This document shows, piece by piece, positions 39,001-42,000 of a stretch of DNA of 64,000 nucleotides. How positions within the stretch are numbered: the first letter of the stretch is position 1; each line of letters starts with the position of its first letter. Source of the stretch: Escherichia coli (GTDB taxonomy: Bacteria > Pseudomonadota > Gammaproteobacteria > Enterobacterales > Enterobacteriaceae); NCBI RefSeq assembly GCF_024223415.1, contig NZ_CP100500.1; one strand, given 5' to 3'. Position numbers: made by a program.

Positions 39001-42000
39001 TTTGTATCCGCAGAACAATTGTTATCTGATTTCTTTGATAACGTTGATCGGCTCATTAACGAAGTTACAAAGGGGAAAGCATGAAAGCCCGCATCGGGAT
39101 CATCCCGGAAAAAGTCCTGCGTCAGCGCCTGATTGAAATTGCCAAGGGGGAGCGGAAACCACACCCCGACGAGCCAAGGGTATGGTTTTCATCCATCAAT
39201 GCGGCGGGTCAGGCGCTGAGCAATGAAAATATCTCCCTTCTTCGTCTTATGGATGAGGAGAAACCGCAGACCATGACCGAACTTGCGGAGTTATCCGGCA
39301 GAAAACTGAGTAACCTGTCTGTAACCCTGAAAATGCTGAGCAGCTACGGTTTTGTCAGTCTGGAAAAGAAAGGAAATACCGTACACCCGAAGGCACTTTT
39401 TACCGATTTTGAAATCATCGTTGATCCGTCCGTCGGTTCAGTACATCGCGCCACCGCCCGCCCCTGAAGTGTGCAATAAACAGCCCCGGTCGGGGCTGTT
39501 TTTTATTCCAGAATCAGCTGTTCAGGTGTGCAGCCGTACAGTCTGGCAAGGCGCTCAATATTTGCCCTGCGCGGGCGTTCTGTTCTTTCGAATTCGGACA
39601 CGGTAGCCTGCCTGATACCCAGCGCATCCGCCACCTGCTTTTGCGTCATTCCGCGATAGATTCGCCACGCCGCCTGCATGGTGCAGCCACGTTCCGAGAG
39701 GATGTTGACCACCTCGTTGGGATACAGCGTATCAGGCGATGCACTCGGTTCGTTCTGGACGTCCTCGTAGAGTTCGTCAAGGTCGCTGTCTCCTGCCAGT
39801 TTTTCAAACAACGCCACTGGCAGAATGACGGATACCCTGTTACCCGCACCGTCAGTAATAAACTGAATCTGACTCATTTGCCCCTCCTGCTAAACATCGG
39901 TTTATTTTTTAATTTGCTGCCGGTGATAAAAAACGGCGGGTCGCCCCGCCTTAGTATGTTGTCGAGGTTCTCCGCTGAATACGGAGGATCCTGATAACCA
40001 CTATCTGCCCTCCCTCAATCGTGAACCTGACACGGTAATGATTTACCCTGAGTCTGTACTCCCCGCCCGAGTCAGTGAGCTTTTTAATATCCAGATTCTG
40101 GAACTTCGGATAGCCATAAAGCGCGTTAACTTTCTCGCGTAAGGATTTCTGATCCCTCGCTGGCAAAACCCGTAAATCTTTGATTGCCCGAGGGGTCCAC
40201 ATGATTTCAGTCGTCATAAACACACCGGAAGCAAATTATTAAAGAGCCGTGCCCGCTGGCACACCTTAAATATAGGTTTTAACCCCTATATTGTCAAACA
40301 AAATCCCTATATCATGAAGTAAAAAAGCACCTCCCGCGACCTCCCTTTCCGGTGCACGAAAGTGCACAAATTTGCACAATTTTTTTGAACGACTTTTTGC
40401 CCTTCCGGCCCGTGTGGCGTCTGGATCCGTCGGGGATCCGTGCGTGCACGAAAAAAGGCCTTTTTCTGCGCGCAGGTGACGGGGGAACAGCCCGCGTTTC
40501 AGGGGGTAAATAGCATTCCCTGAACGATGTTGCAGTGACACAACAGAATGGCTGTATTTCTCACGCTGAGCGTGAAAAAGACGTAAGGGCTTTTGATTTG
40601 ATGGGGTGAAAGATAAGGCCGTCAAAATCGCACTGAGGCAGCGAGAATATGTCGTCAGAGTTGCGGGGTTGCGTAAGCATCCGCCCGGCGATGATGGCTA
40701 CAGGGCTGGAGATGTTGTGAAATTATCTGAAGGAATAACCAGCTTGCAGGAGAACCCGGGCAAAGTCAGAATAGCGGCAGGCATCAACTCAAAAGAGGAT
40801 AATGTCATGAGCCACTTTAATGATTTATGCCAGATCAATCGTGAAGCTGAAGAAAAACGCGCTGAGGCAGCTCAAATTTTGCGGGATGAAGCGGCAAGGC
40901 TGATTGATTTCTATGAAGAATGGCTGGGGCTTCCATCCATGTACTGGGAAGACGATGATGGCGACCTGCACCGCTACGTGGAGACAGGCTTGCCATGTAA
41001 GACAGCGGCGGATTTTAGTCCTCTTTCAGTCCACAATATCGCATCTGCACCAGACAATATTTTCCGCATGGCCGTACGAACCTGGGTTAAGTCATCTGAC
41101 AGCAGCTACCCGGTAAGCGTGGTTATTGCACTTGAATTATATTCAGTAGATGCGGAACGGGTGTCTCTGAGAGTCCGGGTGGAAGACGATATTTCTGTTC
41201 GCGTATTTATCAATAAACCCAGCGAAGAAGCCTGGGGCGATGTTGTTATGCACATGAAAAAGCACATCGCTAATCACCTGAAAAAGCGAGCGCCATCAGC
41301 ACTTCGTTAAGCAGAGCTGGAGAGTCGGGGCATAAATTTTTTATGCCCCGGCGAAGCAGCAGACAAGCGAAGCGCGTCAGGATATGGGCCGGGTGTCTAA
41401 CAGTGCGTAAGGGTTAAAACGGATCACCTCTTCGCCCAGCCAGTCGTTGACGTGTTTCATTGCTTCCATGACGGGCATCAGTTCGTTAATGGCAAACACA
41501 CGGGCTGCCTTCTCCACATCCCCGAATGACCCCTTCTCACCCGGCATGGCCCCCATCAGCTGAGGTGGCACGCGGTGCACAGCCAGCACGTCATCACGCG
41601 ATGCGGCCTTGACGTTCATGAACTCATCCTTTGCGGTGATTTGCTGAAACGGCAAAATCTGTACGCCATCCTTACCACCTCCCGCCGCGTGGATGAGCAG
41701 ATTTTTAAACGCCCCGCCACCACGCGCGCTTTGCAGCGTTTCCCGCAGTTTTTCCATGCTTTCACGGTCAACCTGCGCCGCACCGATGTAGACAATACAG
41801 CCCGCGTGTGAGCCGTTATCGTAGTAGAGCTTGCGGAAGATATCGGCGGAATGTGACAGGCTGGCAGACAGCAGGCCGCCCAGGTAATCCGGCATCCCGT
41901 AAATCTCCTGGTTGATATCAGGATTCATCAGGTGGCATATCGTCCCCTCACGAAAGCGGTACTCTTCCTGTCCTTCCTGTATATACCACCATGATTTCAT

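What the first reader, a model, noticed from the sequence alone, without database searches (positions are those of the whole stretch)
39503..40330. RelE/ParE-like toxin with XRE-family partner, separated by an intrinsic-terminator-like hairpin
The hotspot also holds a minus-strand pair: a RelE/ParE-like protein of about 90 aa upstream of a 124-aa XRE-HTH protein (HigBA-like order). Unusually, a GC-rich hairpin followed by TTTTTT lies in the 73-bp gap between the two genes, and the antitoxin has its own strong RBS. Upstream of the toxin gene there is a palindrome ATATAGG-N8-CCTATAT (40270-40291) plus a further CCTATAT half-site (40316-40322), suggesting operator sites. A terminator between toxin and antitoxin would set the relative dosage of the two genes.
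Basis: partly seen in the sequence, partly recalled or inferred. Interest (0 to 1): 0.45.

Follow-up and report, generated by a model that had tools for sequence, protein, structure and literature searches.

The report
RelE toxin–antitoxin pair with intercistronic hairpin
This is an ordinary-looking, already-annotated RelE-type toxin/XRE antitoxin pair carried in the defence "hotspot" of a P2-like E. coli prophage, but the stem-loop between its two genes is conserved across a whole clade of such pairs, and only this allele and one other carry the run of Ts that makes the stem-loop look like a true transcription terminator.

Summary
On the minus strand there is an 88-aa RelE-type toxin (39951-40217), a 73-nt gap, and a 124-aa XRE-HTH protein (39503-39877). 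The gap starts with GGCGGG-GCGA-CCCGCC followed by G-TTTTTT. The antitoxin has an AGGAGG ribosome-binding site. A near-consensus promoter overlaps ATATAGG repeats; the third repeat is at 40306-40312, not 40316-40322.

[quoted passage not shown] It occurs in 9 of 5426 complete E. coli genomes, where RefSeq already annotates it as a RelE/ParE toxin plus an HTH protein.

New here:
- **Hairpin is clade-wide.** 33 of 38 distinct relatives with separated genes have a stable hairpin, mostly with a GNRA loop, 0-8 nt after the toxin stop. At least 8 different stem sequences occur.
- **Sister clade differs.** There the two genes overlap and no hairpin is present.
- **T-run is rare.** Only 2 of the 33 hairpins have one.
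- **This allele has skewed ribosome-binding sites.** It pairs the T-run with the weakest toxin site and the strongest antitoxin site in the set.

Most likely this is a self-repressed type II toxin-antitoxin module. Its hairpin marks the 3' end of a toxin-only transcript, here probably by partial termination. The dosage idea is plausible but untested. Interest is modest.

The parts
40305..40312 (-). Distal operator half-site ATATAGGG, 21 bp (two helical turns) upstream of the proximal copy
   Evidence: Direct repeat D1 and inverted repeat I9. Exact 7-mer match. Between 1 and 3 upstream copies are present in relatives.
40269..40297 (-). Promoter TTGACA (40297-40292), 17-nt spacer, TATATT (40274-40269). 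The operator palindrome ATATAGG-N8-CCTATAT (40291-40270) fills the spacer and overlaps the -10 element.
   Evidence: The promoter scan gives 11 of 12 matches. The palindrome is exact. The same layout occurs in more than 20 related loci.
40249..40262 (-). 5'-UTR hairpin GTGCC-AGCG-GGCAC, starting about 7 nt after the -10 element and so at or near the 5' end of the transcript
   Evidence: Relatives have a hairpin at the same position with different stem sequences. The transcription start is inferred, not mapped.
40233..40246 (-). Conserved leader motif CTCTTTAATAATTT between the 5' hairpin and the toxin ribosome-binding site
   Evidence: (C/T)TCTTTAAnAAT is seen in most Enterobacterales relatives and in several distant ones. 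Its function is unknown.
39951..40217 (-). RelE-type toxin gene, 88 aa plus stop. It has a weak Shine-Dalgarno sequence and ends in RRTSTTY*.
   Evidence: Pfam ParE_toxin 3.8e-9. PHROG 1213 'RelE-like toxin' 1e-14. PDB profile hits are RelE3, aRelE and E. coli RelE. Foldseek top hits are RelE structures. R55, R57, R62, R83 and Y88 are invariant. RefSeq calls it a RelE/ParE family toxin.
39935..39950 (-). Intercistronic hairpin GGCGGG-GCGA-CCCGCC, directly abutting the toxin stop codon
   Evidence: -14.0 kcal/mol. A hairpin is conserved at this position in 33 of 38 distinct relatives, with at least 8 stem variants and 27 of 34 GNRA loops.
39928..39933 (-). T6 run, one G after the stem. Together with the hairpin it gives a canonical intrinsic-terminator shape.
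   Evidence: At least 5 T in 8 is seen only here and in L041 among the 33 hairpins. By eye the run lines up with CCCTTCTA in Klebsiella and CCCTTTTA in Kosakonia.
39883..39888 (-). Shine-Dalgarno sequence AGGAGG of the XRE gene, 5 nt before its ATG
   Evidence: Sequence. The anti-SD duplex is -10.8 kcal/mol, the strongest antitoxin site among 29 loci.
39503..39877 (-). XRE-HTH antitoxin and autorepressor candidate, 124 aa. It has a low-confidence N-terminal segment (residues 1-53) and a C-terminal HTH domain (54-121).
   Evidence: HTH_3 5e-11 over residues 72-121. PHROG 7241 matches the full length at 1e-29. AlphaFold pLDDT profile. It is paired with the toxin in every intact locus examined, apart from one decayed module (L012) and one toxin-less orphan (L090).
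39478..39501 (.). Bidirectional terminator-like hairpin AAACAGCCCC-GGTC-GGGGCTGTTT. It closes the pair and the convergent HVO_A0114-family gene.
   Evidence: Terminator scan: 10 pairs, followed by T-rich sequence.

Best explanation
The locus is a self-repressed type II toxin-antitoxin module. It is carried as cargo in the variable hotspot of a P2-like E. coli prophage, between the replication endonuclease and portal genes.

**Components.** The toxin is a RelE-type, presumably ribosome-dependent, mRNA endonuclease. The partner is a two-part protein. Its poorly ordered N-terminal segment is inferred to wrap and neutralise the toxin, as in V. cholerae HigA2. Its C-terminal XRE helix-turn-helix domain is inferred to bind the ATATAGGG repeats that overlap the -35 and -10 elements, shutting off the single promoter.

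**The hairpin.** A stable hairpin sits directly after the toxin stop codon and belongs to this clade's design. It marks and protects the 3' end of a toxin-only RNA. The antitoxin is translated independently, from its own ribosome-binding site, on transcripts that continue past the hairpin.

**This allele.** Here the hairpin has acquired a six-U tract, so the toxin-only RNA is probably made by partial intrinsic termination. A very weak toxin site and a very strong antitoxin site offset the resulting shortage of antitoxin message.

**Shown versus inferred.**
- Shown: family assignments, architecture, conservation, and the rarity of the U-tract.
- Inferred: toxicity, neutralisation, operator binding, termination, and any role in phage defence.
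For: **Toxin family**
- Pfam ParE_toxin is above its cut-off.
- A family profile hits only RelE mRNA interferases in the PDB.
- The AlphaFold model best matches RelE3, aRelE, T. thermophilus RelE and M. tuberculosis RelE structures.
- R55, R57, R62, R83 and the C-terminal Y88 are invariant.

**Antitoxin**
- C-terminal HTH_3 domain.
- The N-terminal 53 residues have low pLDDT, with one short helix.
- This matches the layout described for VcHigA2 (PMC5416850).

**Cognate pairing**
- The two genes are adjacent in all but two of the relatives found, one decayed and one toxin-less. These lie in P2-like hotspots, chromosomal sites and an N15-like plasmid prophage.

**Autoregulation**
- An 11/12 promoter overlaps three ATATAGG half-sites.
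- The layout is conserved, and the half-site sequence differs between the more distant loci.
- The same operator-promoter drives the XRE gene alone in Xenorhabdus.

**Hairpin**
- 33 of 38 distinct post-stop regions have a hairpin of -10 kcal/mol or better within 0-8 nt of the stop. Only 10 of 3300 shuffles match this.
- At least 8 stem sequences occur, and 27 of 34 loops are GNRA, which points to an RNA element read on the sense strand.
- The sister clade, with overlapping genes, has no hairpin.

**Terminator in this allele**
- Six-bp GC stem, tetraloop and U6.
- No sigma-70-like promoter lies between the toxin's codon 30 and the XRE start, so the antitoxin appears to depend on read-through.
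- Toxin SD is -3.0 and antitoxin SD -10.8 kcal/mol, against family medians of -6.3 and -5.6.

**Location**
- The site is the hotspot described in PMC9122126 and PMC9519451.
Against: - No experiment or transcript data were available. Termination, read-through fraction, toxicity and neutralisation are all untested.
- 31 of 33 relatives with the hairpin lack a U-tract. Termination is therefore not the conserved function, and the T-run here could be incidental.
- A terminator before the antitoxin gene lowers antitoxin message, which runs against the usual need for excess antitoxin. The compensation argument rests on one allele. The other U-tract allele (L041) has no such skew in ribosome-binding sites (-5.2 versus -6.4).
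- The main-clade stem GGCGGG/CCCGCC is invariant in 15 sequences. This could mean sequence-specific recognition rather than a simple structural barrier.
- The toxin scores below the curated cut-off of NCBIfam RelE_StbE (22.6 versus 27.9).
- The toxin has no PADLOC defence-system match.
Confidence: 0.55

Rival explanations
1. The hairpin is mainly an mRNA stability or processing element, and the T-run in this allele is incidental. After endonucleolytic cutting in the AU-rich spacer, it would block 3'-to-5' exonucleases. The toxin segment, flanked by a 5' and a 3' hairpin, would then outlive the antitoxin segment. That would poise the module to fire when transcription stops, for example on phage infection or loss of the element.
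For: - The hairpin is conserved without a U-tract in 31 of 33 relatives.
- GNRA loops point to a stable RNA structure.
- A second hairpin sits at the predicted 5' end of the transcript in this locus and in relatives.
- The spacers are AU-rich.
- The module lies in a known defence hotspot.
Against: - No RNA half-life or processing data exist.
- This allele does have a canonical U6 tract.
- In some relatives (L103 group) the hairpin is followed after only 2-3 nt by the antitoxin ribosome-binding site, which leaves little room for a processing site.
Confidence: 0.25
2. The hairpin is a translational insulator. It re-forms behind the terminating ribosome and stops ribosomes from sliding on to the antitoxin start. 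Antitoxin synthesis is thereby uncoupled from toxin translation. This is the opposite of the sister clade, where the two reading frames overlap and are presumably coupled.
For: - Gapped genes always go with the hairpin and overlapping genes never do, and the two states separate into two clades.
- The hairpin lies 0-8 nt from the stop in all cases.
- Every antitoxin gene in the gapped clade has its own ribosome-binding site.
Against: - A gap of 28-186 nt would already abolish coupling without any hairpin.
- The idea does not explain the U-tract here.
- There is no direct evidence.
Confidence: 0.1
3. The two genes are separate transcription units. The hairpin is an efficient terminator for the toxin gene, and the XRE gene is expressed from its own, undetected promoter in the gap or in the 3' end of the toxin gene. 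Second promoters are known in some reverse-order modules, for example rnlAB (PMC5535158).
For: - The terminator shape is canonical.
- In Xenorhabdus the two genes really are separate units, with the order reversed and a terminator between them.
Against: - No sigma-70-like match at 9 of 12 or better lies between toxin codon 30 and the XRE start in this allele. Only 4 of 29 relatives have one, and at non-homologous positions.
- The operator-bearing promoter is upstream of the toxin gene, not the XRE gene.
- In A. baumannii higBA2 a predicted antitoxin promoter proved inactive (PMC5906591).
Confidence: 0.07
4. The hairpin and T-run are a chance feature with no function.
For: For this 96-nt region taken alone, the folding energy is unremarkable against shuffles (z = -0.29).
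Against: - Position-specific conservation in 33 of 38 distinct relatives, against 10 of 3300 shuffles.
- The motif is found only at this junction in 518 kb of related loci.
- Different stems occur at the same position in distant relatives.
Confidence: 0.03

Closest known systems
Vibrio cholerae HigB2-HigA2 (PMC5416850, PMC11006873)
   Same: - The toxin gene comes first.
- The toxin has a RelE-like fold and active-site type.
- The antitoxin is modular, with a poorly ordered N-terminal neutralising segment and a C-terminal XRE-HTH domain for dimerisation and DNA binding.
- The antitoxin represses its own promoter.
   Different: - No sequence similarity to either protein was detected. Neither appears in the PDB sequence or profile searches or in the top 50 Foldseek hits.
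- I found no report of a conserved hairpin between those genes.
RelBE of E. coli and the archaeal RelBE (M. jannaschii RelE3, P. horikoshii aRelE)
   Same: These are the best sequence and structure matches for the toxin. The same kind of conserved basic residues and C-terminal tyrosine are present.
   Different: In RelBE the antitoxin gene comes first and encodes a ribbon-helix-helix or unrelated small protein. Here the order is reversed and the antitoxin is an XRE-HTH protein.
Reverse-order type II modules with extra transcriptional features (higBA of Rts1, hicAB, rnlAB, A. baumannii higBA2; PMC5535158, PMC5906591)
   Same: The toxin gene comes first, which raises the same question of how antitoxin excess is secured.
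   Different: Known solutions are a second promoter or differences in translation rate. Here no second promoter is detectable. Instead a conserved hairpin, in this allele terminator-shaped, sits before the antitoxin gene.
Type III ToxIN: terminator between antitoxin repeats and toxin gene (from my own knowledge)
   Same: A terminator inside the module is used to set the relative dosage of the two components.
   Different: In ToxIN the terminator lies after the antitoxin RNA and limits the toxin. Here it lies after the toxin and would limit the antitoxin. The antitoxin here is a protein.
P2 hotspot cargo (tin, old, and the systems in PMC9122126 and PMC9519451)
   Same: Same position, between the replication endonuclease gene and the portal gene. 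The minus-strand orientation matches that of old and tin in P2.
   Different: No defence phenotype is known for this pair. The toxin matches no PADLOC model.

Membership tests
RelE/ParE toxin superfamily (Pfam PF05016) | Match to the family HMM above the curated gathering score | tested here: met
   37.4 bits against a cut-off of 23, E = 3.8e-9, covering residues 7-81. PHROG 1213 'RelE-like toxin' at 1e-14.
RelE-type mRNA interferase (as opposed to ParE gyrase poison) | Closest solved relatives are RelE proteins, and the fold is the RelE microbial-RNase-like alpha/beta fold | tested here: met
   The top profile hits (to E = 3e-3) are all RelE-type toxins: 3bpq RelE3 8.8e-10, 1wmi aRelE 7.5e-9, E. 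coli RelE 8e-8. Foldseek ranks 1-6 are RelE structures, and the first ParE is at rank 8.
RelE-type mRNA interferase | Conserved basic residues plus a C-terminal tyrosine, corresponding in kind to E. coli RelE K52/K54/R61/R81/Y87 (residue list from my own knowledge) | tested here: met
   R55, R57, R62, R83 and Y88 are invariant in 23 family members. The R82-to-Y88 spacing of 6 equals that of R81 to Y87.
RelE-type mRNA interferase | Match to NCBIfam TIGR02385 RelE_StbE above its curated cut-off | tested here: not met
   22.6 bits against a cut-off of 27.9. The protein is a divergent member and is not named by that model.
RelE-type mRNA interferase | Ribosome-dependent cleavage of mRNA at the A site, and toxicity | not testable with these tools
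   Needs expression and cleavage assays.
Type II toxin-antitoxin module | Conserved adjacency of a toxin gene and a small partner gene across unrelated genomic contexts | tested here: met
   The pair is kept in P2-like hotspots, chromosomal sites and an N15-like plasmid prophage. Decayed copies also exist: L012 has a broken toxin gene and L090 is an orphan truncated XRE.
Type II toxin-antitoxin module | The protein antitoxin binds and neutralises the toxin | not testable with these tools
   Only inferred, from the conserved N-terminal extension of the XRE protein.
Type II toxin-antitoxin module | Autorepression through operator sites in the promoter | tested here: inconclusive
   Three half-sites overlap the -35 and -10 elements. 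They are conserved, and the half-site sequence differs between more distant loci. Binding itself was not tested.
HigBA family in the strict sense (HigB/Gp49 toxins, Pfam PF05015/PF05973) | The toxin matches the HigB or Gp49 HMMs | tested here: not met
   Only ParE_toxin is hit. The pair shares gene order and antitoxin type with HigBA but not the toxin family.
VcHigA2-like antitoxin | Disordered N-terminal neutralising segment followed by a C-terminal XRE-HTH domain | tested here: inconclusive
   Residues 1-53 have pLDDT of 50-72 with one helix (21-30). The HTH domain (54-121) has pLDDT above 80. No sequence similarity to HigA2 was detected.
Rho-independent (intrinsic) terminator | GC-rich stem of at least 5 bp, loop of 3-8 nt, directly followed by a U-rich tract | tested here: met
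   Six G-C pairs, a GCGA loop, then G plus U6. Among relatives with a strong hairpin, only 2 of 33 have at least 5 T in 8.
Rho-independent (intrinsic) terminator | Transcripts end at the U-tract in vivo or in vitro | not testable with these tools
   No transcript data are available.
Anti-phage defence system of the P2 hotspot | [quoted passage not shown] | tested here: met
   The gpA homologue is at 35677-38166 and the portal gene at 41377-42432. The hotspot is described in PMC9122126 and PMC9519451.
Anti-phage defence system of the P2 hotspot | Match to a known defence-system model, or a protective phenotype | tested here: not met
   The toxin has no PADLOC hit, and the XRE protein has only generic HTH hits. 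The phenotype is not testable here.

The most novel reading that the evidence does not exclude
The hairpin may be a sensor that ties antitoxin supply to what ribosomes are doing on the toxin reading frame. Two versions remain possible.

- **Version (a), this allele.** A ribosome sitting on the toxin stop codon, which directly abuts the stem, keeps the terminator from forming. The antitoxin gene is then transcribed only while the toxin frame is being fully translated. If RelE activity cuts ribosome traffic, read-through drops, which gives a switch-like response.
- **Version (b), the whole clade.** RelE cleavage at the toxin's own stop codon would release an antitoxin-only RNA that begins at the hairpin. 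A 5'-terminal stem-loop is a known stabiliser, so toxin activity would feed back to favour the antitoxin.

Neither version is excluded by the data, and neither has direct support.
Probability: 0.1. Interest if true: 0.6.

Novelty: new variant of a known kind. Interest (0 to 1): 0.35.

Why it matters
How toxin-first ("reverse-order") toxin-antitoxin modules keep enough antitoxin is an acknowledged open point. PMC5906591 states that it is not known.

This clade offers a natural comparison:
- Sister modules with overlapping genes and no hairpin.
- Modules with separated genes and a conserved GNRA hairpin but no U-tract.
- Modules that add a 16-19 codon small ORF in the gap.
- This E. coli allele, where the hairpin has a full U-tract and the ribosome-binding sites are strongly skewed.

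Swapping these junctions between alleles would show directly how transcript architecture sets the toxin-to-antitoxin ratio. The module also sits in the P2 defence hotspot. The same experiments could therefore say whether such architecture tunes a toxin-antitoxin pair for firing on phage infection.

The gene pair itself is ordinary and already annotated.

Tried and rejected
1. **Link to the P2 cos site.**
   - The hairpin core GGCGGGGAAA is also in the P2 cohesive end GGCGAGGCGGGGAAAGCAC. One relative (L042) shares 15 nt with it.
   - The window has no P2-type cos at 3 mismatches or fewer, and no homology to the P2 cos region.
   - The hairpin is also present in modules outside phages. I treat the resemblance as chance.

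2. **An outer helix that pairs the toxin stop codon with sequence 3' of the hairpin.** It looked as if it covaried (TGATG/CGTCA, TAAAG/CTTTA). Helices of that length are reached in about half of shuffles (median fraction 0.5). Rejected.

3. **A promoter for the antitoxin inside the toxin gene or the gap.** None in this allele, and only 4 of 29 relatives have one, at non-homologous positions.

4. **Known RNA families.** Rfam gave nothing relevant in 38500-41500, even at E = 5 or below.

5. **A covariance model built from the main-clade hairpin (R1).** It retrieved only GGCGGG-type hairpins, so it could not be used for a formal covariation count. RNAalifold on the main clade shows an invariant stem with no covariation. 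The evidence for structure comes from more distant relatives with different stems.

6. **A 7-codon mini-ORF in the gap.** ATGTTTAGCAGGAGGGGCAAATGA (39897-39874) ends on the XRE start codon. It has no ribosome-binding site and is absent from the closest relatives. Taken as chance.

7. **Word-based homologue search with the toxin.** It found only near-identical E. coli proteins. That briefly suggested the toxin was not conserved alongside the XRE protein. tblastn on the fetched loci showed toxins of 35-70% identity next to all but two of the XRE homologues.

8. **Single-sequence folding of the gap.** Not distinguishable from shuffles. The signal is positional and comparative, not global.
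Full report
**1. What is in the sequence**

On the minus strand the ORF list gives a 90-aa ORF from GTG (39951-40223) and a 124-aa ORF (39503-39877). RefSeq and the homologues support the ATG at 40217 as the toxin start, giving 88 aa.

The 73-nt gap (39878-39950) begins directly after the TAA stop. It reads GGCGGG-GCGA-CCCGCC (39950-39935), then G, then TTTTTT (39933-39928). The consensus scan reports this as terminator-like, with 6 G-C pairs. The stem-loop is -14.0 kcal/mol. 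AGGAGG lies 5 nt before the XRE ATG.

Upstream of the toxin gene, TTGACA-17 nt-TATATT (40297-40269) matches 11 of 12 promoter positions. The exact palindrome AATATAGG/CCTATATT (40269-40276 and 40285-40292) fills the spacer and overlaps the -10 element. A third copy lies 21 bp upstream at 40306-40312.

ATATAGG occurs four times in the 64-kb window, and three of those are here.

**2. Context**

The pair lies between a P2-type replication endonuclease (35677-38166, plus strand) and the portal and terminase genes (41377-44183, minus strand). This is the variable hotspot of P2-like phages, which holds tin and old in P2 itself. It is a described reservoir of anti-phage systems (PMC9122126; PMC9519451).

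The 861-bp region is present at 98.8-100% identity in 9 of 5426 complete E. coli genomes, always on the chromosome. Several of these come from chicken isolates. RefSeq annotates the genes as 'type II toxin-antitoxin system RelE/ParE family toxin' and 'helix-turn-helix domain-containing protein'. It is absent from the phage collection at the DNA level.

A second allele, at 68% identity, is found in 8 further E. coli genomes, also next to a P2 replication endonuclease gene.

**3. The proteins**

*Toxin*
- It matches Pfam ParE_toxin above the gathering score and PHROG 1213 'RelE-like toxin'. It falls just below the curated cut-off of NCBIfam RelE_StbE.
- A profile of 23 family members hits RelE-type toxins in the PDB: M. 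jannaschii RelE3, P. horikoshii aRelE, E. coli RelE and M. tuberculosis RelE.
- The AlphaFold model has pLDDT 83.8, and its topology is strand, two helices, then four strands. Its best matches are the same RelE structures, with ParE, YafQ and YoeB lower down.
- Five residues are invariant in the family: R55, R57, R62, R83 and the C-terminal Y88. From what is established for E. coli RelE, this is the kind of set that forms the active site. I therefore call it a RelE-type mRNA interferase rather than a ParE gyrase poison. Activity is untested.

*Partner*
- It has a C-terminal Cro/C1-type HTH (HTH_3, residues 72-121) and matches PHROG 7241 over its whole length.
- In the AlphaFold model, residues 54-121 form a confident helical HTH domain. 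Residues 1-53 are low-confidence, with one short helix.
- This two-part layout is the one described for V. cholerae HigA2, where a disordered N-terminal segment folds onto the RelE-like HigB2 (PMC5416850).
- No sequence similarity to HigA2 or HigB2 was detectable. The resemblance is in design, not demonstrated family membership.

**4. Relatives**

I collected homologous loci from the protein database, from representative genomes and from viral contigs.

The XRE homologues, at 30-79% identity, are preceded by a RelE-type toxin in every intact locus with one exception. One decayed copy and one toxin-less orphan also exist; they are listed in section 9. These loci include P2-like hotspots in Klebsiella, Kosakonia and Serratia, and chromosomal sites in Morganella, Citrobacter, Enterobacter and Ewingella.

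The exception is a Xenorhabdus N15-like plasmid prophage. There the same operator-promoter drives the XRE gene directly, and the toxin gene lies downstream behind a terminator.

**5. The operator**

The promoter-operator layout is conserved: 1-3 direct half-sites, then TTGACA, then an inverted pair whose right arm supplies the -10 element. The half-site is ATATAGGG in the main clade. In more distant loci it is ATATAAGG, TATAACC, TATAACT, ATAAGTA or TATAAGAAAAT. In the three distant XRE proteins checked, the probable recognition helix also differs (QATVS in the main clade; QSAVS, QASVS or QAAVS in those).

This is good comparative support for autorepression by the XRE protein. It remains an inference.

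**6. The hairpin**

This is the main result. The family splits into two architectures.

- **Overlapping clade.** Toxins end in ...RDERTY*, and the toxin frame overlaps the antitoxin start by about 17 nt. No hairpin is present.
- **Gapped clade.** Toxins mostly end in ...RRTSTTY*; this clade includes the window. The genes are separated by 28-186 nt.

In the gapped clade, 33 of 38 distinct post-stop regions carry a hairpin of -10 kcal/mol or better, starting 0-8 nt after the stop. Only 10 of 3300 dinucleotide shuffles do as well.

The stem is GGCGGG(G)/(C)CCCGCC in most Enterobacterales, and is invariant in 15 aligned sequences. More distant members have different stems at the same place:
- GTGGGGA/TCCCCAC
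- GTGAGG/CCTCAC
- GGGCGA/TCGCCC
- GGCAGGGC/GCCCTGCC
- ACGGTGAG/CTCGCCGT
- AAGGTAG/CTGCCTT

Of 34 loops, 27 are GNRA: GAAA, GCAA, GTAA, GCGA or GGAA. GNRA loops make sense only on the sense strand as RNA.

The motif occurs nowhere else in 518 kb of fetched loci, and only once in the window. It is therefore not a generic repeat.

**7. Is it a terminator?**

A U-rich tract, meaning at least 5 T in the 8 nt after the stem, is present only in the window (7 of 8) and in one distant relative, L041 (6 of 8). The other 31 hairpins have 0-4. Classical intrinsic termination is therefore not what is conserved.

In the closest relatives the homologous positions read CCCTTCTA (Klebsiella) and CCCTTTTA (Kosakonia), where the window has TTTTTTAT. 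The U-tract thus looks like a derived state of this allele.

No sigma-70-like promoter is detectable between the toxin's codon 30 and the XRE start, here or consistently in relatives. The antitoxin gene therefore appears to depend on read-through.

This allele also has the weakest toxin ribosome-binding site (-3.0 kcal/mol) and the strongest antitoxin site (-10.8) in the set. The family medians are -6.3 and -5.6. That is what compensation for reduced antitoxin message would look like. However, it is a single case, and L041 shows no such skew.

**8. Mechanism and rivals**

*Preferred reading (confidence 0.55)*
- The locus is a self-repressed type II module.
- Its hairpin defines and protects the 3' end of a toxin-only RNA.
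- In this allele that RNA arises by partial termination.
- The antitoxin is translated independently from read-through transcripts.

*Rivals*
- A pure stability or processing element, with an incidental T-run (0.25).
- A translational insulator (0.10).
- Two separate transcription units with an undetected antitoxin promoter (0.07).
- Chance (0.03).

It does not describe what the element does across the clade.

I also considered two switch-like readings: ribosome-dependent anti-termination, and RelE self-cleavage releasing a hairpin-capped antitoxin RNA. An apparent outer helix pairing the stop codon would have favoured the second. It is not above chance.

**9. Other things seen**

- **Small ORF in long gaps.** Alleles with gaps of 169-186 nt, including the second E. 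coli allele, carry a 16-19 codon ORF with a strong ribosome-binding site between the hairpin and the XRE gene. Examples are MPKIISSGLRSRRRIS and MSMIKSATNTYCIRII. RefSeq does not annotate it.
- **Leader.** There is a hairpin at the predicted 5' end and a conserved CTCTTTAAnAATTT motif.
- **Neighbouring pair.** The hotspot also holds a DUF6516 plus HVO_A0114-family pair at 38710-39467.
- **Repeats.** GTGCAC(G/A)AA and GGATCCGT repeats lie at 40352-40453.
- **Decayed copies.** The toxin gene is broken in Rahnella bruchi, and Erwinia toletana has an orphan truncated XRE.

**10. Verdict**

The gene pair is ordinary and already annotated. The hairpin is real and is conserved across the clade, and I found no description of it in the papers searched. 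Its terminator shape is found only in this allele and one other. I rate this a new variant of a known kind, of modest interest.

Noticed in passing
L171 2902-2952 (minus strand); also L005, L027-L033, L035, L043, L089 between hairpin and XRE gene: Alleles with long gaps (169-186 nt) carry a 16-19 codon small ORF with a strong ribosome-binding site and a basic C-terminus, for example MPKIISSGLRSRRRIS. Its stop codon lies inside an AT-rich inverted repeat, GTTAAAAA...TTTTTAAC. RefSeq does not annotate it. It is absent from the window allele. It could be a leader peptide or a third component.
   Followed up: partly
window 40233-40262 (minus strand): The 5' UTR of the toxin gene has a hairpin at the predicted transcript start. 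Its stem sequence differs between relatives. It is followed by the motif CTCTTTAAnAATTT, which is conserved at the nucleotide level in most relatives, including some at only 38% toxin identity. Its function is unknown; it might be an mRNA stabiliser plus an AU-rich translation enhancer.
   Followed up: partly
window 38710-39467 (plus strand): A second small gene pair in the same hotspot overlaps by 4 nt and is convergent with the XRE gene. It consists of a DUF6516-family protein (124 aa, no Pfam hit here) and an HVO_A0114/MarR-like winged-helix protein (128 aa). In strain 23CRST011 the first gene is replaced by two other genes while the second is kept. It may be another toxin-antitoxin-like or defence pair.
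   Followed up: no
window 40343-40460: The region upstream of the toxin-antitoxin promoter is dense in repeats: GTGCAC(G/A)AA three times (40352, 40362, 40444), GGATCCGT twice (40423, 40434), and several inverted repeats. It lies between the pair and a divergent 197-aa gene of unknown function (40717-41310, PHROG 5091). It could be regulatory, or part of this phage's packaging (cos) region. No P2-type cos sequence is present in the window.
   Followed up: partly
L083 1-19 (P2 cosL) versus hairpins in the window and L042: The hairpin core GGCGGGGAAA is also the core of the P2 cohesive end GGCGAGGCGGGGAAAGCAC. The relative L042 shares 15 consecutive bases with it. This is probably chance, because the hairpin is also present in copies outside phages.
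   Followed up: yes
L087 2080-3120 (Xenorhabdus bovienii N15-like plasmid prophage): The module is rearranged. The ATATAGGG operator-promoter drives the XRE gene directly. The RelE-type toxin gene lies 228 nt downstream, behind a canonical terminator. A second pair of Gp49 and HTH_37 type (HigBA-like) follows immediately.
   Followed up: partly
L012 2699-2962; L090 3001-3327: Decayed copies exist. In Rahnella bruchi the toxin gene is interrupted by a stop codon and has lost its start region. In Erwinia toletana a truncated 108-aa XRE homologue stands alone without a toxin gene.
   Followed up: no
Klebsiella phage 3LV2017, NC_047817.1 9170-9541: A 69%-identical XRE homologue is encoded in this deposited phage genome, but no gene is annotated there.
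   Followed up: no
window 39874-39897 (minus strand): A 7-codon mini-ORF (MFSRRGK) in the gap ends in TGA overlapping the XRE ATG. It has no ribosome-binding site and is not conserved in the closest relatives, so it is probably chance.
   Followed up: yes
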